Translations under genes and position numbers: made by a program
Notes under the pieces: model-generated
Told to the model about the DNA's origin: nothing
The model's input: the letters and a program-made list of their open reading frames with translations, nothing else
Database searches by the model: none
DNA from: a virus
IMG/VR virus record: IMGVR_UViG_3300045902_000324
Location: 33,463 to 97,462 of that record
Strand: one strand, 5' to 3'
DNA length: 64,000 nucleotides
Part shown: one piece after another, positions 7,101 through 59,372 of the stretch
Layout: each line of letters starts with the position of its first letter
Position numbering within the stretch: position 1 is the stretch's first letter

Positions 7101-7219
7101 GAGGAACAATCTATCGTGAATTCTTTGGGTTTTGGCTGGCCGAGATCTATCTATACTTAGCACTCTTGCTCGAAAAGAAGAACGCCCTAGTGATGCCCCC
7201 TTGTGGCACACGAATCTAG
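4109..7219 (+). CDS. Minor tail protein M/Dit-like domain fused to a GH8-like glycoside hydrolase and possible carbohydrate-binding module
   Basis: First ~110 aa match the gpM pattern (DGYKQ..FSWRP..YFCDEW..ISGKFVQ); GTTEGQFLMIRA resembles the GH8 TSEGQ motif; WVFVRYPWSAFEF is CBM-like. Confidence 0.65.
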   Translation: MPIPILELDPDWEIQEVSTIDQYKSELNDGYKQTATKNLPSSILSWEVRKTGLSQANLNLLLGQLETFAGSTPFSWRPTETVSYRAYFCDEWTVISYDTDCWQISGKFVQDVGGECVELLDLIDTVEITNWLAASDVWLTTYTRNTLPLIMNSVAGKPYLLVNSFHDVLGRGGYFPGSAGTTEGQFLMIRACMDVFNQTGIASWRQRAIDMAVALEPSLYRGQTVPADPNTLWLPHWVFNVKAPFTSKGLNTAPNPLNYGYFDLPVTFTAGVGQISAGAPNQGDKLSDVYSVYATGAKLLWQNVFAPVVFGTQYQVEYWVVNFMLGGQNFRIYPSSASSNGAPPLATTEPAGRIKLTTAFTGSLKVTYAAYTGSVIVANQVFDPYPFWRTLLPGEINSAFDVHWWAYDAYVKLAATTGLLKWTQAAEATRVNTINTAVVQNPTNWYKTEDNPNPFGYPGSQAIQVDNPNGYTASRETAIAGLLNTLKLVVAAAPGGTFPSIEVQNFAVQAQINAAVTIEVAIAQTTTATVRIALSLSPNAFDFSQTYYVNWHVEANTTALTSTSFIPENFFRWDNNLVWHLSIAETPIYVFSGGGGSATTGTFQATNIPYLGKTLKQAVGEIQMNAAAGFAGAGLVLIGRQVRRPPQLAFRTDKTIILRLTDGEGYKWDKEIANTGGWVFVRYPWSAFEFSPNNIGEEPQAPDTQNDIQNIEFIAVAGEGLTTVRIWWASEGTTNPPAQLPIPAQTYKAAVVSRNRNAHTFWVGNFRPANSPSDQLKYNPGVVPFTVNIVNGVVDAWRGLPYMGYQDPELWFKWGLTDRCQQVLDCLDAAQDAYAASTGVVGAFAPVFKWGYWDGGDYLGGLNTFSWSGADPNTSWGQYFYRPLEATAKYWSQNPGDRKADQIVMRGLAMLDAHYLKNNTSVPFTDFPQGAPPFAGYNDPAASALIGRAAVYANLAGGSPSITLRVINRTIKHLQSQYVSTGIMAGTWSAGQPTFVSGGTIYREFFGFWLAEIYLYLALLLEKKNALVMPPCGTRI

Positions 7220-7671
7220 CGAATCGGGCCGTTTCTATCACACACATATCGCACAATAGGGATCACGACATCATCTCCTGCTGCGATAGAACTACCGGGC
7301 ACTGTGTCTCTATCTGCGTTCAATCCGAAGAACGTGAACTGTGCAACACAAACACCATTGCTGCCGTGGTGGTCATAGTCGAGATCTGCTCCAAACGGCA
7401 TGTCGAGTCTGTCCACCCACACCGCCTCAAGTCCGGCTGGCGGCACGTTGCGATCTCGGTCGAGTGGGGGCTGACCCGTATCGGACTGGATCTCCAACAC
7501 CAGCGGTACCATATTTCTTGCTATCGACTGCGCCTCGGCATACAGAGCTTTGTTGCGCTGGTTCAAGTACGAGGGCAGCGCGATCGCAGACAGCACGCCG
7601 ACAATCGCAATTGTCACTAACAGTTCGATTAGCGTGAATCCTGGTTGACCATAATCAGTTCGTTCGTCCAT
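7216..7671 (-). CDS. pilA: Type IV pilin (PilA-like)
   Basis: Class III signal G|FTLIELLVTIAIVGVLSAIALPSYLNQ with Glu5; C-terminal Cys pair; N-terminal helix closely resembles cyanobacterial PilA. Confidence 0.9.
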   Translation of the reverse strand: MDERTDYGQPGFTLIELLVTIAIVGVLSAIALPSYLNQRNKALYAEAQSIARNMVPLVLEIQSDTGQPPLDRDRNVPPAGLEAVWVDRLDMPFGADLDYDHHGSNGVCVAQFTFFGLNADRDTVPGSSIAAGDDVVIPIVRYVCDRNGPIR

Positions 7672-9093: not shown

Positions 9094-9888
9094 CTATCCG
9101 TTAGGGTCTACTTGACAATGCCCAATGTGCTCAGACAGTGGCGCAGGCATACCCACAGCGAAGCCCTGCAACAAAAGGTCGCACTGTGGGTATGGACGCA
9201 CCATCTCGTTCAACTCAGATATCAACGAGTCTGATTCGACCCACTCGGCAATACACAACAATCTAAGATCGTGACAAATGCTGAACAACCCTCGGATAAC
9301 AGCCCGATGTTTTGAGCTGTCCAGAACTCTAATCACAAACCCGCCGTTTATCTTTAGTCCGTCAATCTCTAGATTCACGATTGAGTCTAGATTTGAGTAA
9401 CCTATCCCAATATCGTCAAGCAAAATGGGAGACAATAGCGCCATACGCATCACGCTATCCCCAATTACTCGATAGTCGAGAGGCTGAGACTCAAGTACTT
9501 CTAGAATCAAACACGGCTCGATTAAACCGGACAGTACATCACCAACCCGGTCAGGTAAATCTTTATCGTGCAGTGATGCCGCCGTTAGATTAACTGTAAT
9601 TCTAATGTGCAGGTATCCACACGCTCTGAGCATCCGTAAATCATCGACAACTTGCCGCAACACCCAGGCATCAAGTGCGATCGCCAGCGTGTCAATTTCA
9701 AGAACGTCTGGAACGAACTGAGCCGCTTCAATGACACTCCCATCAGACCGGGACATCCGAATCAGAGCCTCAAACATTTTTGCAGGCTGCCCCAGTTCTG
9801 ACGGACGTTTTACTGGCTGATAGTAGACTCGCAAATCGCCACCGCCAGCCCGCAGTGCGTCCCACACTTTTTGTTGTATCTGGTTCAT
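9094..9888 (-). CDS. Stand-alone EAL-domain c-di-GMP phosphodiesterase
   Basis: YYQP, FEALIR, ITVNL, LEVLE, LDDIGIGYS, LKIN, AEWVE and LQGF motifs; ATG at 9888 overlaps the tipJ stop (TGATG). Confidence 0.9.
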   Translation of the reverse strand: MNQIQQKVWDALRAGGGDLRVYYQPVKRPSELGQPAKMFEALIRMSRSDGSVIEAAQFVPDVLEIDTLAIALDAWVLRQVVDDLRMLRACGYLHIRITVNLTAASLHDKDLPDRVGDVLSGLIEPCLILEVLESQPLDYRVIGDSVMRMALLSPILLDDIGIGYSNLDSIVNLEIDGLKINGGFVIRVLDSSKHRAVIRGLFSICHDLRLLCIAEWVESDSLISELNEMVRPYPQCDLLLQGFAVGMPAPLSEHIGHCQVDPNG

Positions 9889-12587
9889 CAAACGAAAACT
9901 AGATTCTGGGATCTGGACATATCCAAACCACCTGTGATTGCTGCAATCACAGGCTGGCTGTTTACCCACAGCGAGGTGCGATTGTTAACATCAAGCACGG
10001 CGGCGCGACAGTAGTATGTTCCCCTGGTCAGATTCTCGAAACGACACTCATTGGTGCCTGCGGGCACTAGTCGAGTGTCCTGCCATACAATCCCATCGCG
10101 GGAATATTCAACATACACGCCGCGCAGGACGGACGCACTGGCTCCAACAACCCATCGGATGATCAACGTGTACTGCGGAGAAACAGACGGGTCAATCGCC
10201 TGTACAGCGATCGCCTGCCCCAAAACAGATTGAAGTGGTTCTACAACAGGTGGAATCGTAAACCGAGTTGGGGTCGGATCAATGGCTATATCATTCTCAA
10301 TGGCAAGCCATTTGTTCGCATCGTACTGGATGCAGTTGATGTCGATTTTTGTCGGGTCTTGCTGCGGGCGGACTGAGAGCACTCTAAACAGTTGAGCTTT
10401 CACCGAAGGCGACTGAATTACCCAATTCGATTCAGCCTGTGGGAGCTGCGAGAACGGCGGCCACACCTGTACCACATTTGACGTGACATTAACGCCGATC
10501 GTCCGGGTTTCGAGCAATCCGTTTGGCAACATGACAGAAAGCGTCATGCTCGTATTTACGGTGACTGTCGCGTCTAATCGAATCGTGTTAGAGTTAATAA
10601 CTTGTCCGATCAACCCGCCATAGCGAACGTTGGCAAAGTTTGAGTCTGCGACTTGAATCACTTCACCGGGTCGGCAGTATGCAGCGTAGCTTCGAGCGGT
10701 GAAACTTAGCGATCGCGTTTCATTCTTCGAGCTGTACAGAATCCATCTACTATTTCTAATCGCTAGAGATCTTGAGGTGCACCCAAAAAAAGCAACCTCA
10801 ACATCGCGGACACCATAGCGGTTGATCGCCTCAATATCCTCGACTACTTCCACAGCCCGTTGGTAATAGTCATTCGGGTCATTCCAGACACCTCTAACAA
10901 TCGTATGCCGAGTGCGGACAGCCGTTGAGGAATAAACGAAATCCCCTACCACATCAGCCTGTGTGAACTGATGATGACTCACCGGAGTTGGACGATCTTG
11001 CCAGAACTTTACGGTACCCTCCGCCCAGTATGCCCGCATGTGGCACGCCGAGCAAAAGGCGTTGATTACATCCCACGCTTTTTCAGCGGAGGCGATTTGA
11101 GTGTTGCAGGAATATCGGCGCTCAGATCCGCCGAATCCCGTAGGTACATACCCATTGTTATAAACAGACGCATCATACAGATCCCACTTGTCGATTAAAG
11201 AGTCATCCAAGTATCGACCCAGCCCATAGCGCCGATTTGTCAAAATGTCGAACAGTTGCCAAACCGGGTCACTGGTGGCTGTTGCAGGTGTATAGAAATT
11301 GCCGTCCCACACGCCTGAGAAGTTCAGCCCGCGATCGCCTGCGACAATAGCATTCGTGGGAATCCGAACACGCCGTCCACCAACTCGATACTGACGAGAC
11401 GGGATCGAGCTGAACTGGTCTGGGCTAAACTGAAGCCCGATATACGCTGTATACGGATAATTCAACTTATTGGTCGTGACCTCGGTATAGCTAATCCACC
11501 GAACCACCTGAATTGTGCGAGACGAGTTGGAATCACTTGAAATACGCCTCAGTCGGATCTGAAAATTGCCGACCGTACCAGACTGGTTGTTTACCTTGAA
11601 AGCGTGCTCAAACTCAGTCAGTCCACTAAACTTAGCTTTCAGATTTTTTCTGTAGCGAACTGTCCAGGGCGCGATGCCCTGCTTTATTTCGATCTGGTAC
11701 TCTACGTTCGTCCCCTTTACATCTCCATCCTCCTCATACTTCACGAGTTGGATGCCCAGGCGAACACGTATGACATCACACTCCGTGTTCACAAATGCGC
11801 GAGTCGCTGGGCCGGACGCATTCTTGATTTCAATATTTACAAAAGTCTCATTGCTGATCTCAACTCCTTCGTCTGAGATAATCTGCTGCGTTGCGTTCCC
11901 GCGCCGGAACTTATACCGGAAGCCCACAAAGTTGAGTGAGTTATTTGGGTTCTGGACAGGCGTCTCAGATAGATAAATCCCTTTACGAGCACCAATCAGC
12001 CCTTCAATCGGGCCCTCTGAAACAGCCTCCAAGACGTACGCTCTTGAGGTCGATCGCCCGTCGTCATCGGCCTCCTTTGGGCTGGACGCATTTTTTCCGC
12101 CGCCTCCGTTGTGAACACGCAGCCCATGTTCGCCAACCAGGAAGCTGTGGTAGTTCTCAACTCGCAGATTCCATACGGGTGCCACGCCACGCAGTCTAGA
12201 TCGCTCCAGAGGTCTAACCAGGTTTTCTCTATCAAATAGCGCAGCGTCTCGGCCAAGCTTGCCTATCTCCTGAAACGCCCCGCCATCGGTCAGAAACCAG
12301 TGGATCGGAGTTGCTGCTATGGTGCCGCCCCAGTAATCGTACTCCCACACCTCGTGGTTTCCGTGGAACTCTAGCGTTGCTTTGGCTACATGCAAATCGC
12401 CTTTTGAGTCAAACGCTGATACCCATGTACCCTCCGCCACATCCTGGATTTCTACAGTGCCATCTAGCGTGTGGATTAGCGTGCCGGACGGGAAACACCC
12501 CCCGCCTGATCCAAAAACAAGCCCGTCCACATGGCTTGACGGGATGGATGCAACAGCCTTAGTGCGGCGACGCCTAACCTTCGTCAT
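9888..12587 (-). CDS. tipJ: Central tail tip protein J with N-terminal Hint domain
   Basis: AVSEGPIEGL, YPYTAY, WDGNF, DPVWQLFDILTNRRYGLG, GCTSRSLA, RPGEVIQVAD motifs; Hint CFPSGT...VHN at 12497-12108. Start placed at MTKV (uncertain). Confidence 0.9.
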   Translation of the reverse strand: MTKVRRRRTKAVASIPSSHVDGLVFGSGGGCFPSGTLIHTLDGTVEIQDVAEGTWVSAFDSKGDLHVAKATLEFHGNHEVWEYDYWGGTIAATPIHWFLTDGGAFQEIGKLGRDAALFDRENLVRPLERSRLRGVAPVWNLRVENYHSFLVGEHGLRVHNGGGGKNASSPKEADDDGRSTSRAYVLEAVSEGPIEGLIGARKGIYLSETPVQNPNNSLNFVGFRYKFRRGNATQQIISDEGVEISNETFVNIEIKNASGPATRAFVNTECDVIRVRLGIQLVKYEEDGDVKGTNVEYQIEIKQGIAPWTVRYRKNLKAKFSGLTEFEHAFKVNNQSGTVGNFQIRLRRISSDSNSSRTIQVVRWISYTEVTTNKLNYPYTAYIGLQFSPDQFSSIPSRQYRVGGRRVRIPTNAIVAGDRGLNFSGVWDGNFYTPATATSDPVWQLFDILTNRRYGLGRYLDDSLIDKWDLYDASVYNNGYVPTGFGGSERRYSCNTQIASAEKAWDVINAFCSACHMRAYWAEGTVKFWQDRPTPVSHHQFTQADVVGDFVYSSTAVRTRHTIVRGVWNDPNDYYQRAVEVVEDIEAINRYGVRDVEVAFFGCTSRSLAIRNSRWILYSSKNETRSLSFTARSYAAYCRPGEVIQVADSNFANVRYGGLIGQVINSNTIRLDATVTVNTSMTLSVMLPNGLLETRTIGVNVTSNVVQVWPPFSQLPQAESNWVIQSPSVKAQLFRVLSVRPQQDPTKIDINCIQYDANKWLAIENDIAIDPTPTRFTIPPVVEPLQSVLGQAIAVQAIDPSVSPQYTLIIRWVVGASASVLRGVYVEYSRDGIVWQDTRLVPAGTNECRFENLTRGTYYCRAAVLDVNNRTSLWVNSQPVIAAITGGLDMSRSQNLVFV

Positions 12588-17776: not shown

Positions 17777-18184
17777 TCAAGCTATAGGCGAGTCTTGAGC
17801 CTTAATGTATTCCTTAAGTTTCTCAATTGGCGCTCCACCTGTTGAAGCCACATAGTAAGAGCCTGACCAGAAAGACTGTTTTGTGTACCACTTTGAGAAC
17901 TCTTCAGAAAACTCTTTTTTGACCATGCGGCTAGTTGCCGCCTTGAGAGAACCTGCAACAGCGGCAATCGACTGTTTGGGATGAAAATCGACTAGCAGGT
18001 GAATATGATCCGCTTCTCCAGAACATTCCAACAATTCACAGTCCATCGTTCTACAGACTTGCCAGCACATTTCTCTAATCCGTTCCAGCATTGCAGCAGT
18101 AATTGCTTTGCGCCTGTAATGGGTAACGAATACGAAGTGTAACCGCACACTAAAAACACTGTGTGAACCCTTCCTAGCCTTCAT
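17777..18184 (-). CDS. tnpA: Y1 HUH transposase
   Basis: LHFVFVTHYRR, DHIHLL, FWSGSYYVASTG, YIKAQ. Confidence 0.95.
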   Translation of the reverse strand: MKARKGSHSVFSVRLHFVFVTHYRRKAITAAMLERIREMCWQVCRTMDCELLECSGEADHIHLLVDFHPKQSIAAVAGSLKAATSRMVKKEFSEEFSKWYTKQSFWSGSYYVASTGGAPIEKLKEYIKAQDSPIA

Positions 18185-18218
18185 TGCAAATACCCCACCT
18201 GCAAGATATAATGCTCTT

Positions 18219-19472
18219 ATGATGACACGCAGAGTTACCTTTAGGCTGTATCCATCTGAAGCGCAAACGGCAAAGCTGTTTGAGGCTCGGAGGCTTCACG
18301 CCTATCTCTATAACGCTTGCGTTGAGCATCGTAAAACGAGCTATCAGAAGTTTGGCAAGTCCATCAGCTATTTTGATCAGCAAGCCGCGCTTGTACCGTT
18401 TAAGGCTGATTGGCAGGAGTATAGAGCGCTCAATCATGGCTCATTGCAAGCCACAGTGAAGCGGGTTGATTTTGCCTTCCAGCGCTTTTTCAAAGGACTG
18501 GGTGGGTATCCCAAGTTTCAAGCGATTCGCCGTTACTCTGGCTGGACATACCCTGATGCCCGTCAAGGCTTTAAGGTGCATTCAGACGGCAAGAATGGAT
18601 ACTTGGAATTGCGGGATCTAGGGCTAAAGCTCCAGATGCGAGGGCAAGCGCGAACTTGGGGCGCTCCCACGACTTGCACAATTGTCTATCGTAACGGGCT
18701 ATGGTTTGCCAGCATCACGGTAAATTGCGAGGTTGCGCGCAAAACCGGCAATGGCGCGGTAGGAATCGATTTTGGCGTACTGACGGCTGCGGCATTGTCA
18801 AATGGAACCAAGATCGAAAACCCGCGCTTCATTGCCAAAACGCAAGCCAAGGTTCGCAAAGCAAGCAAGGCAAAGCGTCGCAAGCGCTCACCCAATCTCA
18901 AGCAAAAAGTTAAAGCGTCAAAACGATGGAGGAAAGCGTCTAAGCGGGTATCAAAGCTGCAACGCAAAGTTGCAAATCAGCGGCAGAACTGGGTACATCA
19001 AGTCTCTACACAGATAGTCAGCAGTAATAGCTTGGTAGCGACTGAAAAGTTAAACCTCAAAGGGATGACTCGCAAGGCGAGGAAAGGAAAACGCAAGGCG
19101 CAAAAGTCAGGGCTAAACCGCTCCATTCTGGATGTTGGGATGGGGATGTTGCGCGCTGCGATTGCGTATAAGTTGGCGGAAGCAGGGGGTTTCTTTGTGG
19201 AGGTGCCGACGCTCACGGTTAAGCCTTCTCAGACTTGCCCCAGTTGTGGTCATCAGGAGAAAAAACCACTTGAGCAGCGAGTGCATCATTGCCAGCAATG
19301 CGGTTATGTGGAGGATAGAGATGTGGCGGCTGCTCAAGTCATGCTCAATTGGGCACGGGGTAAGGAACTTGCCTCGTCAAACGTGGATGGGTCTGGCTCT
19401 ACTGACTGCGGAAGCATGAAGCAACTAGCCCAAACGAAGCGTCAGAAACTCCTAGCTCAGCGAAGCGGCTAG
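18219..19472 (+). CDS. tnpB: TnpB RNA-guided nuclease
   Basis: FRLYP, GIDFG, TEKLN, SQTCPSCG..CQQCG..DRDVAAA. Confidence 0.95.
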   Translation: MMTRRVTFRLYPSEAQTAKLFEARRLHAYLYNACVEHRKTSYQKFGKSISYFDQQAALVPFKADWQEYRALNHGSLQATVKRVDFAFQRFFKGLGGYPKFQAIRRYSGWTYPDARQGFKVHSDGKNGYLELRDLGLKLQMRGQARTWGAPTTCTIVYRNGLWFASITVNCEVARKTGNGAVGIDFGVLTAAALSNGTKIENPRFIAKTQAKVRKASKAKRRKRSPNLKQKVKASKRWRKASKRVSKLQRKVANQRQNWVHQVSTQIVSSNSLVATEKLNLKGMTRKARKGKRKAQKSGLNRSILDVGMGMLRAAIAYKLAEAGGFFVEVPTLTVKPSQTCPSCGHQEKKPLEQRVHHCQQCGYVEDRDVAAAQVMLNWARGKELASSNVDGSGSTDCGSMKQLAQTKRQKLLAQRSG

Positions 19473-19966
19473 GAGTAGTTCATGCCTGTCTTTATTTTAT
19501 CACTATCACCAATCGTAACTGCGATCGCCAATCCATCCCAAGCGTCGTCTGTAGGATGCATGGTAGCCAAGTCAAACCGAGCCTTCATCACGTCGCGCAT
19601 TGCTGGCTTGGGCGTGTTGCCTTTTCCAGTAATTATCTTTTTTACCTCGCCAGGAGTCACCCACAGAGGGATTGCGCCAAATTCATACAGGGCGAGTGAT
19701 ACGGCTCCGAATGCCGAAACAACCTCAAACCCGCAGCGTGTGGTGCGGAGGTCTGGTTTTTCAATGGCGATCTGGTCTGGTTTCCATGCTTCTACCAGGT
19801 TCGTCACTTCATTTCCGAGCTGTTTCAGTCGCTCGACGTAGTGATCTTTTGGAGACGTGGTGATGATGCCGTGGGCCAGGTGCTCACATGACCCGTCTTT
19901 ATTTCTTTTTACAACGCCCCAGCCGAGCGTTGCATATCCAATATCGATTCCAACGTGAATAGCCAT
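19469..19966 (-). CDS. ruvC: Holliday junction resolvase
   Basis: GIDIG..LGWGVV, IAIEK, VKKIITGKG, DDAWDGLAIA; stop codon lies inside the IS right end. Confidence 0.9.
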   Translation of the reverse strand: MAIHVGIDIGYATLGWGVVKRNKDGSCEHLAHGIITTSPKDHYVERLKQLGNEVTNLVEAWKPDQIAIEKPDLRTTRCGFEVVSAFGAVSLALYEFGAIPLWVTPGEVKKIITGKGNTPKPAMRDVMKARFDLATMHPTDDAWDGLAIAVTIGDSDKIKTGMNYS

Positions 19967-21978
19967 TATTTCTCATCCCAGGATTTGCAACAGGTTGACA
20001 CCGGATCGATGTCCATCTCATCCGGTTGAATCGAGCTAACGAACAGTGACATCGCCGCCCGCATCTGCGTCTGGACGAACGTAGCGACCTCTTTCTTAAA
20101 CTCTTCCTTACACACCACGTCAAGCTCGTCGTGTGCCATGTTTGCCATGTACGCACCCCACTCAGGGTGTGCCAGGAACCCCAGGTATAGCCCAGCCATC
20201 GACAGTTTCACCACATCCGCCTCTGTGGATGTCCAGACGAACGAAACTGCGTCTGTCGCCTTTACTGAGGGCGGATCATTGGGGCGGTAGTCCGAAATCA
20301 TTTTCTGCATCCACAACCGCCGACCGCTCAACCCTCTGTTCTCACCGTAGACAACGCCGCCGAACTCGATTTCGATCTCATTGATGTCGTCAACGATAGC
20401 GTCCTGCTCCTCACTAAGATCCGCGTATGTTTCATGCCACGCCTTGGCTGCGTCTTTTGCAGCATCATCCGCAAGCTCAAAGCCTGCGTCAGTTAGAACG
20501 GTCGCCTGTAGCGTTTTCCAGCCCTGCTTATTCAGCGACCCGTAGTAGACGGGTTTAGCAGCGTTCCGCAGCTTTCCAGCCATTCGGAAGTTCTCATGGC
20601 TCTTGTCTTTACGCCACTTGGCGATATCGTCTACCGTCCAGTGTAGTCCCTGCGACTGGGCCAGCCGTGCTGCGATAATACAGTGGTTGTCATATCCGTC
20701 CAGATATGATTTCAGAATCACCTTGTCGGCACTGACCTGCGCCGCAATTCTGCTGTGGGCCTGGCTTAGGTCAGCAATGATGAGCACATACCCATCAGGT
20801 ACTCGAAAGATCGATCGAACCTGCGACAGTCCTAGCGCCCGTATCTCTGCGGGCATTTTCATTGGATTCGGCGGGTTCTGTAGGTTCACGTTCGGGAAAT
20901 TCTGCCGCTTGGGGTCTTTATCCCCACACAGCGATCGCCCAAATCCCTTTGGTCCAAGCTGACGAAACGCACCGCGCACGGCCCCGTCAAAGTATGCCTG
21001 CTTACATCCGCGCAAATAGTCGATGTATGTGGTCATCGACCGCCACAGCGAGAGCGCTTTTAGAGCGGGAATACCCCAGTGGGGAGCCAGCCCGTCCTGG
21101 TCGCTGCTGGTCAGGTGTAGACTGTACTTCTGATTAATAGCCGAGATCAGTTGCTTCGGACTGTCTGGGTTCACATGAGGAAAATCAGATTTGAACGGCG
21201 CGATAATGCCTTCGCATTCTGCCTGGTAGCGAACTATCAAATCGTCCAGCCTCGCCTCATCGACCGGAAACCCTCGGTATTCCATCTGCACGAATGCAGG
21301 CAGAGCAAGACACTCAGCATTAGCTGGGCCTGTTAGCAGATCACGCTCCAACATTTCGGTCAAACGGCTTTCAATCGTCAGCACGTCAAGGCAATCGGCG
21401 GCTGCGTAGTTCAACTGAGAGATCCGCAAATCCCAGCCCCAATCTGACTTTTGCGCCTGCTTGTCCATTTCAATCCCGCATCGGGCGGCGATCGCTTCTA
21501 GCCCGTGTCTAACCTGAACCAGCCCAGCCCACATCACCTGGGACAGAAGCATCACGTCGCGTACGTTCTGCGCTTGAATGCCGTACTTTACGAGCAGATA
21601 GAGGAGGTCGAATTTTAGGTTTTGCCCAACTTTTTGCACCTGTGGACTTTCCACAAGCTTTTTCAGGATCGAAAAGAACCCTGCGGTTTCTAGTGTCTTT
21701 GCGATCGCCTTTTTATCATCGTTGTGTCCGCCGAGATCTGCGATTATGCACCGTCCTTCCGGCAGTCCGATTTGGATGAGTCGAATGTGCCCCTTCCAGG
21801 GATTCAGCGCATCCTGAGCATTGTCGGAGGTACTGAACGTCTCAATGTCCAGACCGAAGCGATCGGACTGCTCCCAAGCTGTCAGTGCGGCATTCCAGCC
21901 TGCGTCACCGAATCGGACGATGCGGGGGTCTATTTCTACGTCTTCGGCAAAGAACAAAGATTGCTGGTTACTGAGCAT
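19966..21978 (-). CDS. polA: Family A DNA polymerase with 3'-5' exonuclease
   Basis: Exo motifs LDIET, QNLKFD, YAAAD; NLQN, motif A ADLSQAHSR, motif B RNAAKPVYYG, motif C AHDEL. Confidence 0.93.
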   Translation of the reverse strand: MLSNQQSLFFAEDVEIDPRIVRFGDAGWNAALTAWEQSDRFGLDIETFSTSDNAQDALNPWKGHIRLIQIGLPEGRCIIADLGGHNDDKKAIAKTLETAGFFSILKKLVESPQVQKVGQNLKFDLLYLLVKYGIQAQNVRDVMLLSQVMWAGLVQVRHGLEAIAARCGIEMDKQAQKSDWGWDLRISQLNYAAADCLDVLTIESRLTEMLERDLLTGPANAECLALPAFVQMEYRGFPVDEARLDDLIVRYQAECEGIIAPFKSDFPHVNPDSPKQLISAINQKYSLHLTSSDQDGLAPHWGIPALKALSLWRSMTTYIDYLRGCKQAYFDGAVRGAFRQLGPKGFGRSLCGDKDPKRQNFPNVNLQNPPNPMKMPAEIRALGLSQVRSIFRVPDGYVLIIADLSQAHSRIAAQVSADKVILKSYLDGYDNHCIIAARLAQSQGLHWTVDDIAKWRKDKSHENFRMAGKLRNAAKPVYYGSLNKQGWKTLQATVLTDAGFELADDAAKDAAKAWHETYADLSEEQDAIVDDINEIEIEFGGVVYGENRGLSGRRLWMQKMISDYRPNDPPSVKATDAVSFVWTSTEADVVKLSMAGLYLGFLAHPEWGAYMANMAHDELDVVCKEEFKKEVATFVQTQMRAAMSLFVSSIQPDEMDIDPVSTCCKSWDEK

Positions 21979-22906
21979 CAATCTTCTCCGTAGTTGCCAG
22001 CGCCAGTGTGGACGGGTCAGTAATCCACGGCATCCAGCCGAAGATTCTCACCCAACCCAAACGGTTGATGCTTATGATATATGGGCGTTTCGAGTTCACC
22101 GCTTGAGCTGACGGGCTGGCGTGCGTCCAGATCACGGGATCTCCTAATCTCAGCAACACGCCATCTTTCCCGACGACCGAATTTGTCCACATCGGGGTCA
22201 ACTTGCGCTGATCCTCTGTGGGTACAAACGGAGCCTTGCGCCGCCTGGGTTTGCGCCGCGTAGATTTTTTGAACCCTGCGCCATGTACTGCTAGTTCGGC
22301 ACCGCTCGGTAGCGTGCCTACCTGTACGCCTGCAACACAGTTTTTCTCTACGGTGCCGTAGTAGTAATCAACACCTGAGTCACTCAGGACTACTCGGTTT
22401 TCAGGCGTGTAGGCGTCCCTGCCTACCAGAATCCACACCGGGGTGTTTCCATCTTTTCTAGCTTTAGTGGTGCGCTCTATCACATGGGTTGTGTCGATTG
22501 GCGAGTCCTGGATGATAAACAATGTTCTCGACCCGTTAGCCAGCTCCAGTAGCACGTTGTTTTTTCTATCCCTGGAGTCAAGTCCTACATTCAGTGATTT
22601 CAGTCCTACGAGGTCAGAAAACATCTCCTGTAGACACTGCTTGAAAAGCAACACAGTGTCATCTGTATCTACACAAAATCGATTGTCGCCTGCGTGCTCA
22701 AAATGCGGAATAGCGCATCCATCGCCTGTCTTCCGGTAATTCACATTCACCCATGCGTTCGCCTGAGACAGACAGTGTGGGCAGAATAGGGCATTGCTGC
22801 GGGCGAGTGACCGCATCTGGGCCCCAACCTTCAGGCTAGGCACACCTATCGCTACCTTCTTTGAGGGTGTGAACAGGATATGCTCACGAGTTACTGCTAC
22901 CAGCAT
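21968..22906 (-). CDS. CoiA-like Zn-finger/nuclease-domain protein
   Basis: LFCPHC..PHFEH..C and PVWILV pattern; catalytic PD-(D/E)xK residues not evident. Confidence 0.5.
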   Translation of the reverse strand: MLVAVTREHILFTPSKKVAIGVPSLKVGAQMRSLARSNALFCPHCLSQANAWVNVNYRKTGDGCAIPHFEHAGDNRFCVDTDDTVLLFKQCLQEMFSDLVGLKSLNVGLDSRDRKNNVLLELANGSRTLFIIQDSPIDTTHVIERTTKARKDGNTPVWILVGRDAYTPENRVVLSDSGVDYYYGTVEKNCVAGVQVGTLPSGAELAVHGAGFKKSTRRKPRRRKAPFVPTEDQRKLTPMWTNSVVGKDGVLLRLGDPVIWTHASPSAQAVNSKRPYIISINRLGWVRIFGWMPWITDPSTLALATTEKIDAQ

Positions 22907-25900
22907 ATTTTTTGAGGATCAGAGGTTCGAGTTCTAGGACTGGAGCACCCACAATGTCCGGCTGAAAGAGAATCGCGTTGAGTCCATCCTGGAACCCTAC
23001 GATTACACCTGTCATGCCGACAGATGCGGAGAAACCCGTTTCAGCAATCTCATCCAGTATTTCTTTGGCTTCGTCTAGGTGCAACGCAGAGATATCAATC
23101 GCAGCGCGATCGCCAACGGTGAAACCATAGCCGGACTCGGATGTTTGGGTGCCCGTTCCTATATCGTCTTCTGTTTGATTCTGTATGTCAATGGTTTCAT
23201 CGCACAAAGGCGATTCTTCTACGGGCGAAACGTCCTCCACAGGTTCGGGCGGTGGTGCATCGGGTGGAGCGGGAACGTCTGTAGCGTTCTGGGCAAAATA
23301 GGTCACGATGCCGCGATCATTCTCTTCAATACGCCCGCGTCCAGACTCCTGAAGCTGTTTCAAGATGCTTAACGTCAAATCACCAACGGATACACCACTC
23401 TCCTTGGCCATGCGCTGGAGCGTGGATATCTTGCGGTAAATTTCCCGCATCGTTACGCCGCCAGCAAAACTCTCTGCGTACTCCTGGATTCGGAACGCCA
23501 GCGATGTCGGTTCACCGCTCTCGTCAGCCCGTGCCTGCATTAGCAGGTTTTGGCGCAGGTAATACTTGCACAGCAAAATCGATCGCTCTAGCGTGGGAAG
23601 CTGGAGCAGCAGGTTGTCCTTAGACGGGTCAGCCGCGCACTCCATGCAGTGCAGAACCAAAGCTAAGCGGCAGACGTATGCCTTCAACTTTGCGATGAAA
23701 TTTCTGATAGCTTGCCTCTTCTCACGGAACCTGAGTTCGGCAAGGACGTTGTGGAACTGCACCAGCCTTCTATCGCTCTCATCCGTCAGCCGTACATCCT
23801 GCTGTGGAAAGGATTCCAGACCGTTGAAAATTCTATTCAATACCTCGTGTAGTGCATCCTTCTTGTCCTGCCGATTCTCTTTGTAGTCACGGTATGCGAC
23901 CTCTGATTTTGGCGCAGCAATCAAAAATCGGGCCCGCTTACCATTGTCATCGTCGGGATCTTCAAATACCTTTTTGGCTACACCGGGCTGAAGCCCACCT
24001 GCCATCGACAGACGCGGGTTATGGATGGCGAACGTGCGATCTTCGTCCATCCGGTTGACGCTGATCTGATTCGCGTCCCACAGCCCCAGCATGACCTCTA
24101 CGTCATCCCCGCCGCGAGACTTGTACTGGCCAAGACCTCGGATAATTCCGGCGAACTCGTCCTTTGCCCACAAGGTGCCCGCGTTCTTTGGTTGCTGGGA
24201 TAGCCCTTTTAGGACGGATTCAATTTGAGCGATGTCAAACTTGTAATTCCTGCGCCTCGGCGCTGTGGGCACATCCCCGTCACCGTCCCCGTCTTCACCT
24301 TTCTTACGTTTGCGAGACGTTGCCTGGGCATACTCTTCACGCGCTCTTTCATATCTCTCGTCAGCGAGTTTCTGTCTATCCTTAATCGGCTGAAGCATCG
24401 CGGATTCTGCGCGGGACTTACCGCCGCCAGACTCCTCAATGATCAAAGCCCAGATTACGGCTGGCTCTTTCCAGTGGTTGTTGTCCGTTGCACCTTCCTG
24501 CACAATCAGGTTCGTTCTGCCACCGATCATGGATGCCGCCGATGGCAATAAATACTGAAGCAGCATTACTGGGCTTATGCCCATGCGCTTTGCACGGAAA
24601 TCCATCGACTCCGCCAAGTCGCTAGGAAGCACGTCCTTTAACTCAACGTGCTGGTCTGCATACTGATACAGCTTGGCGATCTCCGAGCTGTCCACGAACA
24701 TATCGCGGTCAACCTCTCGGAGGTCGCATCGCACCCGGTACATTTGCAAAAGCGTCTGCGGGTTTCTCGCAGAGCGTTCTGCGATATCCAGGACTTCCTT
24801 AATCGCCTGTCCCTCATTCAGGTGCCGTTTTACCAGCGCGTCAATGCACTGGCTAACTTCTTCGAGCGTGTGGATGCGGCGATCGCCCCCGCCATTCCCG
24901 TTACCGCCATTTCCGTTATCCCCGCCTCCGCTGCCGTTGCTCCCACCGCTACCGTTCCCATTGCCGTTTCCTCCGGCTACTGGAGTACCGTTGCGGCTGG
25001 GCGGATCATACGGCACTGTGGACGGCGCACTTAGCGACGTTCTTATGTCCGCCGGGCACTTTTCCTGAAATAATTCTGGAACGAGGTGTTTCACTTTTTT
25101 CCACGCGGCTTCTTCGCCGCCCCCAAAGGTACAGGCAGGGCTGGCGGAGTTCCACCTAGCCGATTTAGCAATTCTCGTGGCGCGACCTGCGTCCACACCC
25201 ATCCGCTCTCCAGCCGTCACCGTCAGTACAATCGGGTCGCCCGTTGTGGGTATCCCGTTCGCGCTACACCAGTTCATCCAAGAAATCCACTCGTTGGCGG
25301 CAGCCGTTAGCGTGGCGCTGCGGTCTGACTCTGTATCGACCCCATTCAAAATGTCCTTAGACTTCTGACTACCTAGCCGTTCCAGAGCGATCGCATTTGG
25401 TGCATCGGACTGTGTGACCACTCCGTCAAACACGGCTGCTGATTTATTTTCAGAACGCCTAGCGTATAGCCCAATACTATCAAGCGTCGGTACTTCAATC
25501 AGAACCCCGAAGTTCTGAACAGTTTCGTACGCTCGTCCGCTGGGTCCCATAGTCGGGGACATGGCGCAGAAGCGTCCAACGGGCATCGCTTCGCCAATAT
25601 GCTTGCCACCTGGCTCAAACGCAAAATTTGTGAACGCGGGCTTTTCTACCACAGCGACATAGACATGCCATCCGCCGCCCTGCGTCCGCTCTAACCACGC
25701 GCTTTTCAGGACGGGATACTTCTCAAGCCACTCACCGAAAACGCGATCGCTTTCTTCCTGACTATCAAAATTCTTTGCGTCCCAGTCAATCGGGACAAAG
25801 TGCCTGCCATCCGGCAGAACAAAACCCAGCGTGCCTACACCATTCTTCGAGTTAGCAAACCAGCGCTGGACTTCTCCTGCGGTAGGCACTTTGTTCTGGT

Positions 25901-26129
25901 ACTTCGTGTGATAAAGCGGCTGCGGCACGCCCTTTGAGTCCAGCCAGCTTGGATTCTTGCCTGTGTAGCGAGGTAGCGCCTTTCCGTCCAATCCGACGAC
26001 TACCTTACCATCCTTTTTCAGCGGGTACTTCGTAGCGCTCTGTACGGGTGCAATTGGGAGAGCAGGTAGTCCAGCCGCCTGTAGCCACCTAACGGTTTCT
26101 TTTAACGCGGGTTGTTTTGTCAGAAGCAT
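22884..26129 (-). CDS. Primase-polymerase (Prim-Pol) fused to a DUF3987-type helicase
   Basis: GKNP, IDWD, RTQGGGWHVY; EESGGGKS Walker A, KDEFAG, GGLQPG, ARFL; Gly/Asn linker at ~24880-24980. Confidence 0.88.
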   Translation of the reverse strand: MLLTKQPALKETVRWLQAAGLPALPIAPVQSATKYPLKKDGKVVVGLDGKALPRYTGKNPSWLDSKGVPQPLYHTKYQNKVPTAGEVQRWFANSKNGVGTLGFVLPDGRHFVPIDWDAKNFDSQEESDRVFGEWLEKYPVLKSAWLERTQGGGWHVYVAVVEKPAFTNFAFEPGGKHIGEAMPVGRFCAMSPTMGPSGRAYETVQNFGVLIEVPTLDSIGLYARRSENKSAAVFDGVVTQSDAPNAIALERLGSQKSKDILNGVDTESDRSATLTAAANEWISWMNWCSANGIPTTGDPIVLTVTAGERMGVDAGRATRIAKSARWNSASPACTFGGGEEAAWKKVKHLVPELFQEKCPADIRTSLSAPSTVPYDPPSRNGTPVAGGNGNGNGSGGSNGSGGGDNGNGGNGNGGGDRRIHTLEEVSQCIDALVKRHLNEGQAIKEVLDIAERSARNPQTLLQMYRVRCDLREVDRDMFVDSSEIAKLYQYADQHVELKDVLPSDLAESMDFRAKRMGISPVMLLQYLLPSAASMIGGRTNLIVQEGATDNNHWKEPAVIWALIIEESGGGKSRAESAMLQPIKDRQKLADERYERAREEYAQATSRKRKKGEDGDGDGDVPTAPRRRNYKFDIAQIESVLKGLSQQPKNAGTLWAKDEFAGIIRGLGQYKSRGGDDVEVMLGLWDANQISVNRMDEDRTFAIHNPRLSMAGGLQPGVAKKVFEDPDDDNGKRARFLIAAPKSEVAYRDYKENRQDKKDALHEVLNRIFNGLESFPQQDVRLTDESDRRLVQFHNVLAELRFREKRQAIRNFIAKLKAYVCRLALVLHCMECAADPSKDNLLLQLPTLERSILLCKYYLRQNLLMQARADESGEPTSLAFRIQEYAESFAGGVTMREIYRKISTLQRMAKESGVSVGDLTLSILKQLQESGRGRIEENDRGIVTYFAQNATDVPAPPDAPPPEPVEDVSPVEESPLCDETIDIQNQTEDDIGTGTQTSESGYGFTVGDRAAIDISALHLDEAKEILDEIAETGFSASVGMTGVIVGFQDGLNAILFQPDIVGAPVLELEPLILKKYAGSSNS

Positions 26130-47487: not shown

Positions 47488-47544
47488 GGTGAGTTTATGC
47501 AACAATTGTCTACAGCATAGCCCAGATAGACAAACAGGTGAACT

Positions 47545-47940
47545 ATGGACTGCCAGAAAAGCCGCAGTGCAACGCATTTGCTGAACTATCACTTTGTCTG
47601 GATTCCTCGGCGACGCAGACCTGTTTTACGAGGAGAAATAGCAAATCGGTGCAGGCAGTTGATATGGGAAGCAGCAGAGGAGATTGATTGTCAAGTTGTG
47701 TCGTTGGCAATTGAGCCGGATCATGTCCACCTCTTTGTTAACTGCCCTCCAACAATTGCGCCCTATCAAATCATCCATCGAATTAAGGGGCGAACTGCAC
47801 GGTTCCTCAGACAGGAATTTCCTAATCCATTAATGAAACTGCCATCCATGTGGACATCCAGTTACTTTGTCTCAACGGCTGGCAATGTTAGCAGTGAAAC
47901 AATTCAGCGCTACATTGAAGCTCAGGGCAAGAGTAATTGA
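47545..47940 (+). CDS. tnpA: Y1 HUH transposase
   Basis: YHFVWIPRRR, PDHVHLF, WTSSYFVSTAG, YIEAQ. Confidence 0.95.
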   Translation: MDCQKSRSATHLLNYHFVWIPRRRRPVLRGEIANRCRQLIWEAAEEIDCQVVSLAIEPDHVHLFVNCPPTIAPYQIIHRIKGRTARFLRQEFPNPLMKLPSMWTSSYFVSTAGNVSSETIQRYIEAQGKSN

Positions 47941-49215: not shown

Positions 49216-50352
49216 TCACTTCCTAATCTGCACAGGCATCACGATCGCAACGTTTTTCGTGTTCTCACCCCGAATGACGAACGGGGCTGTTCTCGTGTTT
49301 CCACAAATGTAAACTGTGTTGTCAGAGGAGAACGATTTAACAGCCTCCATCATGTAAACCAGATTCATTGCGAACTCCAGGTCGCTACTAGCGCAATCGG
49401 CTGCTACAACCTCCTGTCCGCTTCCCACATCAGCTACGTCCGCCGTGGCAATTACTGACTGGCTGGCGCTATCAACCTTCAAAGTAACAATGTTGTTATT
49501 TTTCTCGACTACCACAGCAATTCGGGACAAGGCATTAACCAGTTCCTTTCTGCCAACGGTAATCTTGTGGTCGAACTTGACTGGGATCAACTGACGGTAG
49601 TTCGGGTATTGCCCTTCAAGCAGTCGCGTATACACATCGAAGGTATTCATCGAAATCCAGAGTCCTGATTCAGTCAACTGAATCTTGCAATCGTCAGTGC
49701 CCGTGCCTTCCAGCGCAATACATTTCAACAACAACCTGACGGAACCGGCCGGGATCGTGAACTCGACGTTATCTCTAGCAATGTTGTTATCGAACTCCAC
49801 CGCCCACACGGTTAGTCGGTGCCCATCGGTGGCAACAAATTCGATGTCGCCAAGACCGGACTCATCTGTGGGCTTTATCGTAACGTGAATGCCAGTGAGC
49901 ACCTGCTTGGTGTTATCTCTCGATGTGCAGTAGACCGTTTTCTCAAAGCCGCTCCGCAGCAGATCAGCGGGGATATGGGCTGTCAGTGCGGCATCCTCAC
50001 TGACAGCGGGAATCTCCGGGAACTCTTCTGCTGGCATACCTTGAATCGAGTAGCTACTGCTGCCAGATGCGATCGTCGCCGCCAACTTGTTAGTGGTCAA
50101 ACCAATAGAACTGAGTCTGTTAGAAATGTCCCCCAGCAACTTAGCGGGTAGCGTGAGTGAGCCAGCTTCTTCTACCGAGGCAGGAACTTTGGCTCGGATA
50201 CCCTTAGACAAGTCGAATGCTGTGACGTAGATGGACTGGTCGGCGGTTGCCTCAATCAGTACGTTTCCCAAAATCGAGTGATTTGTATTGTTTGGAATAC
50301 AACCTGAAACCGTGGACAAGACATCAGATAAAGAGTCAATCGAAATTTTCAT
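49216..50352 (-). CDS. dnaN: DNA polymerase III beta sliding clamp
   Basis: ILGNVLIEA, LPAKLLGDI, EEFPEIP, VATDGHRL, RLLEGQYPNYRQLIP, VMPVQIR. Confidence 0.95.
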   Translation of the reverse strand: MKISIDSLSDVLSTVSGCIPNNTNHSILGNVLIEATADQSIYVTAFDLSKGIRAKVPASVEEAGSLTLPAKLLGDISNRLSSIGLTTNKLAATIASGSSSYSIQGMPAEEFPEIPAVSEDAALTAHIPADLLRSGFEKTVYCTSRDNTKQVLTGIHVTIKPTDESGLGDIEFVATDGHRLTVWAVEFDNNIARDNVEFTIPAGSVRLLLKCIALEGTGTDDCKIQLTESGLWISMNTFDVYTRLLEGQYPNYRQLIPVKFDHKITVGRKELVNALSRIAVVVEKNNNIVTLKVDSASQSVIATADVADVGSGQEVVAADCASSDLEFAMNLVYMMEAVKSFSSDNTVYICGNTRTAPFVIRGENTKNVAIVMPVQIRK

Positions 50353-53109: not shown

Positions 53110-53200
53110 AGTGGTAAGTAGGTGGTTCGATACCCAATATCGTAACTCTGTACATATTTTATGTCAATTGATTGGATCTGGGCACTATCCTCTTTTACCG

Positions 53201-54454: not shown

Positions 54455-54464
54455 TGGATGACCC

Positions 54465-54496
54465 AAAAAAGGAGTGTCCCGGACGCGGGACACTCC
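54465..54496 (-). terminator. Rho-independent terminator directly upstream of the sigma gene
   Basis: 10-bp stem GGAGTGTCCC/GGGACACTCC followed by T6 on the minus strand. Confidence 0.75.
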
Positions 54497-54518
54497 CATT
54501 TTGTCATAAGCGTAAACC

Positions 54519-54707: not shown

Positions 54708-54785
54708 TTATCCTCCAGATTGTGTTAGCCTTAAGTCTAACATCGTAAACCTGTTGCTTTGAAACGTCAACCTGCCAAAGTGATC

Positions 54786-58137: not shown

Positions 58138-58233
58138 GTGGAATCAGTGATAAGTGATTCGTATATCGTAACTTTTAAGCATTCTTGCAGTCAAGCGTAT
58201 TAGACTAGGATACGAGAAATTCATTGGAAACCT

Positions 58234-59287: not shown

Positions 59288-59372
59288 GAACAAACCTCTC
59301 TATGGGGTATCGCCTGGGTTTCTGTCAAAAATCGCCCAGGCGGTTTACTCGGACTACAAAACTAGTCGATAA

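What the first reader, a model, noticed from the sequence alone, without database searches (positions are those of the whole stretch)
20530..20772. Family A polymerase with steric-gate Glu->His and paired motif-B Tyr->Asn
Seen: motif A reads DLSQAHSR (canonical DYSQIELR) and motif B reads KPVYYGSLN (canonical KAINFGLIY). The E710 equivalent is His, the Y766 equivalent is Asn, and position 762 is Tyr. Catalytic Asp residues and exonuclease motifs are intact. Established: in Pol I, E710 is the rNTP steric gate and contacts Y766; both are nearly invariant. Inference: a compensatory double change giving altered sugar/base selectivity, possibly tied to modified DNA.
Basis: partly seen in the sequence, partly recalled or inferred. 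Interest (0 to 1): 0.72.

Follow-up and report, generated by a model that had tools for sequence, protein, structure and literature searches.

The report
Phage DNA polymerase with rebuilt sugar pocket
The DNA polymerase of this probable cyanobacterial virus belongs to a large, undescribed branch of the Pol I family that has replaced the "invariant" residues which hold the incoming nucleotide's sugar (Glu, Tyr, Gln) with a different conserved set (His, Asn, Trp, Glu); this makes it a natural test case for how polymerases tell DNA from RNA building blocks.

Summary
The gene at 19966-21978 (minus strand) encodes a 670-aa family A polymerase with intact exonuclease and catalytic motifs. It has His409 at the Klenow E710 position and Asn484 at the Y766 position.

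This is not a one-off. Every one of about 180 relatives that cover both positions reads His plus Asn (one reads Cys), including cultured Nodularia phage vB_NpeS-2AV2. All canonical outgroups read Glu plus Tyr/Phe. The His-bearing sequences form one clade, so this was a single ancient switch, not repeated covariation.

The change is wider than two residues. In motif 6, Q849 and N845 are also lost, and a new near-invariant Trp583 and invariant Glu587 appear. Positions 706, 709, 711 and 761 change too.

The closest solved structures are the apicoplast and Aquifex PolAs. The 2023 PolA reclassification implies Tyr at the Y766 position in all 19 subfamilies but DpoZ. No paper I found describes this clade.

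The link to modified DNA is not supported at family level. A TAGT-like glycosyltransferase cluster occurs only in this phage (0 of 7 other records), and PurZ, TGT and TET are absent.

Most likely this is an active replicative polymerase with an alternative steric gate. Its sugar selectivity is untested. Many members also carry an N-terminal beta-clamp-binding-like motif.

The parts
19966..21978 (-). polA gene: 3'-5' exonuclease plus family A polymerase, 670 aa from the ATG (671 from the TTG one codon upstream)
   Evidence: ORF. Pfam PF01612 (4.7e-19) and PF00476 (9.8e-18). AF2 model pLDDT 94.1, pTM 0.92. Best folds are apPOL and Aquifex Pol I, TM 0.75-0.81. It is the only DNA polymerase found in the 97-kb record.
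20749..20772 (-). Motif A, DLSQAHSR (D404-R411). H409 (20755-20757) sits at the Klenow E710 steric-gate position, A408 at I709, S410 at L711 and L405 at Y706.
   Evidence: In the clade: H 185/185, A at position 709 in 141/185, L at position 706 in 141/185.
20521..20568 (-). Motif B (O-helix), RNAAKPVYYGSLNKQG (R472-G487). R472 = R754, K476 = K758, Y479 = N761, Y480 = F762, N484 (20530-20532) = Y766.
   Evidence: In the clade: N 182/183, Y at position 762 in 167/180. The AF2 model has a helix at 465-483.
20215..20244 (-). Motif 6, SFVWTSTEAD (S580-D589). S580 is at N845, W583 at the residue before Q849, T584 at Q849, and E587 three residues after Q849.
   Evidence: HMMER alignments to 8jrb and apPOL. 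Column counts: W 174/181 and E 180/180 in the clade; Q 12/12 and N 10/10 in canonical outgroups.
20125..20133 (-). Motif C, HDE (H617, D618, E619): the catalytic carboxylates
20935..20943 (-). TGR-type motif, reading FGR here (R349 invariant)
21394..21849 (-). Span covering the exonuclease motifs: Exo I DIE (21841-21849), Exo II NLKFD (21607-21621), Exo III YAAAD (21394-21408)
   Evidence: D45, E47, Y192 and D196 are invariant in 56 sequences.
21949..21966 (-). N-terminal QQSLFF, a beta-clamp-binding-like motif (QxSLF)
   Evidence: Q-x-[ST]-[LFIM]-[LFWY] occurs in the first 30 aa of 43/143 full-length clade members, against 15/3198 internal windows. One search shows it in loci from cyanobacteria and phages. 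The segment is disordered in the model.
21968..26129 (-). Upstream genes of the same operon: a DUF3987 helicase with a primase-like N-terminus (22884-26129) and a 312-aa protein of unknown function (21968-22906). Their ends overlap each other and polA.
19469..19966 (-). RuvC-like Holliday junction resolvase. Its start overlaps the polA stop.
49216..50352 (-). Phage-encoded DnaN beta sliding clamp, a candidate processivity partner of the PolA
   Evidence: three DNA_pol3_beta domains. No Pol III alpha in the record.

Best explanation
This gene encodes the replicative, proofreading DNA polymerase of an uncultured siphovirus of about 97 kb or more, most likely a cyanophage. It belongs to a large, deep, mostly viral branch of family A polymerases whose nearest characterised relatives are the Aquificae-like and apicoplast PolAs.

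In that branch, the hydrogen-bonded network that cradles the incoming nucleotide's sugar and reads the minor groove has been replaced as a block. The canonical network is Glu710, Tyr766 and Gln849, plus Asn845. The replacement is His (motif A), Asn (end of the O-helix), a hydrophobic residue at the Gln849 position, and a new conserved Trp and Glu in motif 6. Smaller residues flank the His (Ile709 to Ala, Leu711 to Ala/Ser), and positions 761-762 carry an aromatic pair.

Shown here: the residues, their invariance, the single origin, intact catalytic, triphosphate-binding and exonuclease residues, and a confident Pol I fold.

Inferred: the imidazole of His409 lies under C2' of the incoming dNTP and acts as the steric gate. 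It would be held by Asn484 and/or Glu587 in place of the Glu-Tyr-Gln bonds. On this reading the enzyme still selects dNTPs and copies ordinary DNA. Tyr at position 762 would make it T7-like, that is, tolerant of ddNTPs.
For: Residue assignment.

Clade-wide fixation: 182 H+N, 1 H+C, and no H+Y or E+N among 207 aligned sequences. The same holds in 16 loci from viral and bacterial contigs and in cultured Nodularia phage 2AV2. All other cultured-phage hits read E+Y.

Single origin: the 180 His-bearing tips form one clade against 12 E/Y outgroups, with SH-like support 0.83 and stem length 0.80.

Motif 6 rebuild.

Catalytic and binding residues are kept: D404, R472, K476, H617, D618, E619 and the exonuclease D/E/Y/D.

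Fold: pLDDT 94, TM 0.75-0.81 to apPOL and Aquifex Pol I.

Replicative role: it is the only polymerase in the record. It sits in an operon with a helicase/primase-like gene and RuvC. Relatives are fused to DUF3854 (a domain of unknown function) plus an SF2 helicase. AAA_25 ATPases or DnaB helicases are the commonest neighbours. RNR is present in 4 of 8 such viral records.

Background: the Glu of motif A hydrogen-bonds the motif B Tyr, the motif 6 Gln and the TGR Arg, and lies against C2' (PMC6158600).
Against: No biochemistry exists for any member. I could not read model coordinates, so the His-Asn-Glu contacts are inferred from positions in known Pol I structures, not measured. A polar His/Asn pair next to C2' could just as well accept a 2'-OH. 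Loss of Gln849 and Asn845 suggests that minor-groove checking also works differently, which may change fidelity or substrate range. The clade support of 0.83 comes from a tree built on a family-derived HMM alignment with only 12 outgroups.
Confidence: 0.6

Rival explanations
1. The rebuilt pocket relaxes or changes sugar selectivity. The polymerase would then incorporate ribonucleotides or other 2'-substituted nucleotides at useful rates, for example when dNTP pools are low in slow-growing hosts.
For: E710/E615 is the residue whose loss opens Pol I enzymes to rNTPs (PMC6158600; Astatke 1998 as cited in PMC10201439). His and Asn are hydrogen-bond donors and acceptors that could accommodate a 2'-OH. 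Ile709, another determinant of sugar selectivity in Taq, is Ala here.
Against: His is bulky and invariant, which fits a retained gate. The proofreading exonuclease is invariant. RNR occurs in 4 of 8 related viral records, so dNTP supply is maintained. No RNase HII is encoded in any of the 8 records. The genomes are DNA.
Confidence: 0.17
2. The substitutions adapt the polymerase to hypermodified phage DNA, either by incorporating modified dNTPs or by copying glycosylated templates.
For: This phage carries a TAGT-like glycosyltransferase (62315-63085), ParB-N genes, two WbqC genes, PIG-L, an epimerase, a UDP-sugar dehydrogenase and a methyltransferase.
Against: TAGT is present in 0 of 7 other His/Asn-PolA viral records, including two that are at least 94% complete. 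PurZ, TGT and Tet_JBP score 0 of 8, though the Tet_JBP control search found nothing anywhere and is uninformative; a ThyA-like gene scores 1 of 8. A census of 142 neighbouring ORFs shows no recurrent nucleotide-modification gene. Established knowledge: TET/TAGT-type modification is post-replicative and lies in the major groove, away from positions 710, 766 and 849.
Confidence: 0.06
3. The His acts as a regulatory sensor of pH, redox state or metal, tuning replication to the host's light/dark physiology.
For: The named hosts are mostly cyanobacteria. The pKa of His is near cytoplasmic pH.
Against: The clade also occurs on contigs binned to Flavobacteriaceae and Saccharibacteria. There is no supporting data.
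Confidence: 0.04
4. The protein is a degenerate or non-catalytic polymerase homologue, or the motif assignment is an alignment artefact.
For: It lacks three residues usually called invariant.
Against: All metal-binding and triphosphate-binding residues are conserved. The replacement residues are themselves invariant over about 180 clusters, down to 26% identity. The model is confident. Two independent HMMER alignments agree on the register. It is the only polymerase in the phage record.
Confidence: 0.02

Closest known systems
Aquificae-like / apicoplast PolA ('Hot Spring 1', cd08639; P. falciparum apPOL 5DKU/9QSC, Aquifex pyrophilus Pol I 8JRB)
   Same: Best sequence and structure matches. Same exo+pol architecture without a 5' nuclease. 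Like the apicoplast PREX polyprotein (primase-helicase-exo-pol), some relatives carry an N-terminal DUF3854 plus SF2 helicase fusion.
   Different: Those enzymes keep Glu (motif A), Phe762, Tyr766 and Gln849 (alignments; PMC10201439). Identity is only about 20%.
E. coli Pol I Klenow fragment, Taq and Bst Pol I
   Same: Same fold and the same catalytic Asp/Asp/Glu, Arg754/Lys758 and His881 equivalents.
   Different: E710, Y766, Q849, N845 and I709 are replaced by H, N, T(L/M), S(A) and A. A new Trp and Glu appear in motif 6. There is no 5'-3' exonuclease domain.
T7 DNA polymerase (T7-like phage PolA)
   Same: A replicative phage PolA with proofreading and Tyr at the F762-equivalent position.
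   Different: T7 keeps E480 and Y530. T7 gains processivity from thioredoxin, whereas this clade has an N-terminal clamp-binding-like motif and often a phage DnaN.
DpoZ (phiVC8-like and Wayne-like)
   Same: A phage PolA clade with a natural substitution at the Tyr766 (B4) position; it is the only such case reported in PMC10201439.
   Different: DpoZ has Phe at B4 and keeps the Glu gate. It co-occurs with PurZ, which is absent here (0 of 8).
APEX / PolA2 of Actinobacteria
   Same: Carries a QxxLF beta-clamp-binding motif. PMC12926913 calls it the first A-family polymerase with such a motif.
   Different: In PolA2 the motif lies in a loop of a dead exonuclease domain of a repair enzyme. Here it is at the extreme N-terminus of a proofreading phage replicase, and binding has not been shown.
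DPANN family B polymerases with a His steric gate
   Same: Another polymerase family in which the sugar gate has become His as a clade-wide trait together with partner residues.
   Different: A different family (PolB; Tyr to His) in cellular archaea. Known to me only from AI notes.

Membership tests
Family A DNA polymerase (Pfam PF00476 + PF01612) | Profile match above the curated cut-off for the polymerase and 3'-5' exonuclease domains | tested here: met
   64.7 bits (cut-off 34.3) and 69.3 bits (cut-off 23.6).
Family A DNA polymerase (Pfam PF00476 + PF01612) | Right-hand Pol I fold | tested here: met
   AF2 pLDDT 94.1. Foldseek TM 0.75-0.81 to apPOL, Aquifex Pol I and Klenow.
Family A DNA polymerase (Pfam PF00476 + PF01612) | Catalytic carboxylates of motifs A and C, and Arg/Lys of motif B | tested here: met
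   D404, D618, E619, R472 and K476 are invariant or nearly so.
Family A DNA polymerase (Pfam PF00476 + PF01612) | Conserved hallmark residues (not required for homology): Glu steric gate, Tyr766, Gln849 | tested here: not met
   H409, N484 and T584. This is the finding itself. It defines a variant within the family and does not exclude membership.
Aquificae-like / apicoplast subfamily (cd08639, cluster 8 of PMC10201439) | Canonical motif logos, with Phe at B3 and Glu at A2 | tested here: not met
   Tyr at B3 in 167/180 and His at A2 in 185/185. It is the nearest relative, but this gene is not a member.
DpoZ | Phe at B4 and co-occurrence with PurZ | tested here: not met
   Asn at B4. PF00709 found in 0 of 8 records.
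Clamp-dependent polymerase (QL[SD]LF-type beta-binding motif) | Consensus motif in a disordered terminus | tested here: met
   QQSLF at residues 6-10 (P0001 numbering). Enriched at the N-termini of the clade, 43/143 against 0.5% background. pLDDT is below 50 for residues 1-6.
Clamp-dependent polymerase (QL[SD]LF-type beta-binding motif) | Physical binding to the beta clamp | not testable with these tools
   Needs a pull-down, ITC or a co-structure.

The most novel reading that the evidence does not exclude
The His/Asn/Trp/Glu pocket is a naturally evolved alternative sugar-recognition site that gives this whole phage PolA clade a different substrate range. For example, it might make efficient use of ribonucleotides or 2'-modified nucleotides, or check the minor groove in a different way. 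These enzymes would also be clamp-tethered A-family replicases. That would overturn the view that the Glu gate is universal in family A and would supply a new scaffold for engineering polymerases that accept unnatural nucleotides.
Probability: 0.18. Interest if true: 0.85.

Novelty: new variant of a known kind. Interest (0 to 1): 0.66.

Why it matters
Glu710, Tyr766 and Gln849 are textbook residues of Pol I-type enzymes, and decades of mutagenesis treat them as near-immutable determinants of sugar choice and fidelity. In the most complete classification of the family (PMC10201439), the only noted exception at the Tyr766 position among 19 subfamilies is Phe in DpoZ.

This clade has at least about 150 clusters at 50% identity and is present in cultured Nodularia phages and in cyanobacterial genomes. 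It has kept a different, equally invariant solution. That makes a concrete question testable: can a His-based gate exclude ribonucleotides, and what replaces minor-groove sensing by Gln849? It also offers new natural scaffolds for polymerase engineering. In addition, it hints at a phage replisome that couples a family A polymerase to a beta clamp.

Tried and rejected
1. Complex prediction of PolA residues 1-40 with the phage DnaN gave no verdict: score 0.15 against a mark of 0.32. It counts neither for nor against binding.

I replaced it with a census of 142 ORFs around polA in 10 loci.

3. Synteny by tblastn of window proteins against 9 related loci found almost nothing shared besides polA and TnpB. 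The polymerase travels between unrelated genomes.

4. A family-level link to DNA modification was rejected: TAGT, Tet_JBP, TGT, PurZ and the ThyA-like gene. The Tet_JBP control search found nothing anywhere, so that one search is uninformative.

5. DUF3987 is not a constant partner: 0 of 7 whole records and 1 hit among the 142 neighbour ORFs. A phage DnaN is present in only 3 of 7 other records.

6. The idea that the cyanophage 'Pol gamma-like' polymerases (Mic1, A-HIS1; PMC7156551) are the same clade was rejected. They were not retrieved by P0001 in the phage collection.

7. Literature searches for a His steric gate in family A found no description.

8. Model coordinates are not exposed, so His-Asn-Glu distances could not be measured.

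9. Pfam found no intein domain in the motif-B inserts of relatives.
Full report
**What is there.** The window is the last 64 kb of a 97,462-bp IMG/VR virus record that CheckV rates as 84% complete. It encodes lambda-type tail genes: L, a JAB/K-like gene, I and J. It also encodes sigma factors, M23 peptidases, helicases, a DnaN beta clamp and IS200/IS605 elements.

The gene in question is the ORF at 19966-21981 on the minus strand. The probable start is the ATG at 21976-21978, preceded by GGAG. The database holds the same 670-aa protein (P0002).

Pfam finds a 3'-5' exonuclease domain and a family A polymerase domain, both above their cut-offs. The gene lies in a tightly packed minus-strand operon. 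Upstream are a DUF3987 helicase with a primase-like N-terminus and a 312-aa protein of unknown function. Downstream is a RuvC gene whose start overlaps the polA stop. No family B or C polymerase is present in the record, so this is the presumptive replicase.

**Checking the observation.** Motif A reads DLSQAHSR and motif B reads RNAAKPVYYGSLNKQG.

Independent HMMER alignments to Aquifex pyrophilus Pol I (8jrb) and to the Plasmodium apicoplast polymerase put ADLSQAHSRIAA on ADFSQIELRIAA. Motif B is anchored by Arg472/Lys476 (Klenow R754/K758) without indels. This makes Tyr480 the F762 equivalent and Asn484 the Y766 equivalent. The exonuclease motifs and motif C (HDE) are intact.

**It is a clade, not a mutation.** A word-indexed search and an exhaustive HMMER search of 1.84 billion cluster representatives recovered a large family. 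There are 168 clusters at 50% identity with E below 1e-30.

I built an HMM of the polymerase core and read the motif columns in all 207 sequences it matched. Every family member that covers both positions reads His plus Asn: 182 sequences, plus one with Cys. Two apparent 'His+Pro' cases come from inserts inside motif B. The more distant hits (P0060-P0077) read Glu plus Tyr/Phe. No His+Tyr or Glu+Asn intermediate was seen.

The same holds for 16 loci fetched from viral and bacterial contigs. It also holds for the cultured Nodularia phage vB_NpeS-2AV2, which reads DLPAAHLA and RASCKNVVYSGLN. All other cultured phages hit by this protein keep Glu and Tyr: Rhodobacter, Brevundimonas, Yersinia, Rhizobium, Pseudomonas, Vibrio and Sulfitobacter phages. 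So among 50,697 phage records, only the nine Nodularia phage records carry this type.

In a maximum-likelihood tree of the polymerase core, the 180 His-bearing tips form one clade against 12 canonical outgroups, with SH-like support 0.83 and a stem of 0.80 substitutions per site. The His/Asn state therefore looks like one ancient event followed by strict conservation. That is strong evidence of function, but it is not repeated covariation.

Within motif A, Tyr706, Ile709 and Leu711 are mostly Leu, Ala and Ala/Ser in the clade. Asn761 is mostly Phe/Tyr, and Phe762 is Tyr in 167 of 180.

Motif 6 is rebuilt as well (the register is confirmed by both alignments). Asn845 is Ser/Ala. Gln849 is Leu/Met/Thr (Thr584 here). 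The preceding residue is Trp in 174 of 181 (Trp583). The residue three positions after Gln849 is Glu in 180 of 180 (Glu587). Canonical outgroups read Asn, Gln, Val/Ile and Ala/Ser/Gly at these positions.

According to PMC6158600, the motif A Glu lies against C2' of the incoming nucleotide. It hydrogen-bonds the motif B Tyr (Taq E615-Y671; T7 E480) and, in pol theta, also the motif 6 Gln and the TGR Arg. The clade has thus replaced this whole network while keeping the Arg (R349, invariant), the catalytic carboxylates and the triphosphate ligands.

**Structure and relatives.** An AlphaFold2 model built on the 56-sequence alignment is confident: pLDDT 94.1 and pTM 0.92. The O-helix spans 465-483 and the first six residues are disordered. 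The best PDB matches are the apicoplast polymerase and Aquifex Pol I (TM 0.75-0.81), followed by Klenow, Bst, Taq and pol theta.

The nearest described subfamily is therefore 'Hot Spring 1 / Aquificae-like' of Czernecki et al. 2023 (PMC10201439). That subfamily keeps the canonical residues. The paper presents motif logos for 19 subfamilies. It labels the steric gate as position A2 among the highly conserved positions, and it calls Phe at B4 in DpoZ a 'unique substitution'. So this clade is not among the described subfamilies.

Searches for a His gate in family A, in the virioplankton PolA papers and in a 2026 survey of bacterial polymerases found nothing. An unchecked first-reader note of this scan reports the same motifs on another genome.

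**Who carries it.** The named sources are mostly filamentous cyanobacteria: Stenomitos, Chlorogloeopsis fritschii PCC 6912 (on the chromosome), Nodosilinea, Symploca and Tildeniella. There are also contigs binned to Flavobacteriaceae and Saccharibacteria. The nearest Atlas clusters are 72-93% viral.

Neighbouring genes differ between loci. A census of 142 flanking ORFs shows AAA_25 ATPases (5), C5 methylases (2), DnaB, DUF3987, a TrwC/TrwB pair and a photosystem reaction-centre gene. No nucleotide-modification gene recurs. Long relatives of 1,600-1,800 aa fuse DUF3854 (a domain of unknown function) and an SF2 helicase to the exo-pol core. This fits a replicative role and recalls the apicoplast PREX polyprotein, which fuses primase and helicase to the polymerase.

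**The modified-DNA idea.** This phage does carry a candidate DNA-glycosylation cluster at 53-63.7 kb: a TAGT-like glycosyltransferase, ParB-N genes, two WbqC genes, PIG-L, an epimerase, a UDP-sugar dehydrogenase and a methyltransferase.

The link does not hold across the family. TAGT is absent from the seven other viral records that carry a His/Asn PolA, two of which are at least 94% complete. PurZ, TGT and Tet_JBP were found in none of eight records, and a ThyA-like gene in one. The Tet_JBP control found nothing anywhere, so that search is uninformative. In this record no TET or C5 methylase was found, although the contig ends right at the cluster.

From established knowledge, TET/TAGT-type modification is post-replicative and sits in the major groove, away from the residues at issue. 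I therefore rate this reading as unlikely as an explanation of a clade-wide trait.

**Most likely mechanism.** The enzyme is an active, proofreading replicase. Its sugar pocket uses His409 as the steric gate, with room made by Ala408 and Ser410. Asn484 and/or Glu587 would hold the His in place of the Glu-Tyr-Gln bonds. The Tyr479/Tyr480 pair would line the sugar as Tyr526 does in T7.

The residues, their conservation and the fold are shown. The contacts and the retained dNTP selectivity are inferred. RNR is present in four of eight related viral records and the exonuclease is invariant, which favours ordinary DNA synthesis. No phage RNase HII was found.

The main rival is that a polar His/Asn pocket tolerates a 2'-OH or other 2' groups. 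It cannot be excluded without kinetics.

**A second feature.** The protein starts MLSNQQSLFF. A Q-x-[ST]-[LFIM]-[LFWY] motif occurs in the first 30 residues of 43 of 143 full-length clade members, against 0.5% of internal windows. It is seen in the cyanobacterial and phage loci, including QLDMF in the Nodularia phage. This matches the beta-clamp-binding consensus.

The window encodes a DnaN with no Pol III alpha. The Nodularia phage encodes DnaN and a DnaX-like clamp-loader subunit near polA. Three of seven other records encode DnaN, but the two most complete do not, so a host clamp may be used. PMC12926913 states that actinobacterial PolA2 is the first A-family polymerase with an identified clamp-binding motif. 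If binding holds here, this would be a second, independent case, in a phage replicase. Binding has not been shown.

**Verdict.** The feature is real, ancient, conserved and, as far as I could find, undescribed. It is a new variant of a known enzyme family, and its functional consequence is open and readily testable.

Noticed in passing
window 21949-21966 (-), with DnaN at 49216-50352 (-): The N-terminal QQSLFF of the PolA matches the beta-clamp-binding consensus. The motif is about 60-fold enriched at the N-termini of the clade. The phage encodes its own DnaN but no Pol III alpha. PMC12926913 reports only one earlier A-family polymerase group (APEX/PolA2) with such a motif.
   Followed up: partly
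relatives P0048, P0088, P0107, P0116, P0141 (motif B): Five clade members carry a 202-260-aa insert at the same point inside motif B, after Y-[GS]. It begins CVP[LM] and ends I[TS]ITGN, followed by Ser or Cys. These are intein-like boundaries, but no Pfam intein domain was found at E <= 1e-3.
   Followed up: partly
window 53027-63717: Candidate DNA-glycosylation cluster: two ParB-N genes, WbqC-PIG-L-WbqC, an NAD epimerase, a UDP-sugar dehydrogenase, a methyltransferase and a TAGT-like glycosyltransferase (which also hits the PHROG annotated as beta-glucosyl-HMC alpha-glucosyltransferase). The contig ends just beyond it. No TET or C5 methylase was found in the record.
   Followed up: partly
window 17777-19472 and 46198-47592: An IS200/IS605 pair (TnpA on the minus strand, TnpB on the plus strand) sits directly downstream of RuvC. 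A second TnpB is 62.6% identical over 417 aa to a TnpB-like gene that lies next to polA in Nodularia phage 2AV2.
   Followed up: no
relatives P0137, P0167, P0197, P0210 (1,667-1,806 aa): Polyprotein forms that fuse DUF3854 and an SF2 (Herpes_ori_bp/ResIII-like) helicase to the His/Asn exo-pol core. This resembles the apicoplast PREX polyprotein (primase-helicase-exo-pol).
   Followed up: partly
L012 and L016 (Stenomitos rutilans scaffold JAHHIE010000002.1, about 102 kb apart): Two loci on one scaffold have identical ORF layouts around identical polA copies. This is either a large duplication or an assembly repeat.
   Followed up: no
window 7216-7671 and 9094-9969 (-): A stand-alone EAL-domain gene directly follows tail gene J, and a gene with a prepilin N-methylation motif ends the same block. 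Earlier notes on this window also flagged both.
   Followed up: no
window 57109-58137 (-): A 342-aa protein matches the MgsA_C domain and a PHROG annotated as ATPase. It is a possible clamp-loader-like or RarA-like factor. No DNA_pol3_delta2-type clamp loader was found in the record.
   Followed up: no
G003:C1:99326-100420 (viral record behind L006): A thymidylate-synthase-like gene is matched in two pieces with two in-frame TAA codons between or inside them. It may be an interrupted or intron-containing gene.
   Followed up: no
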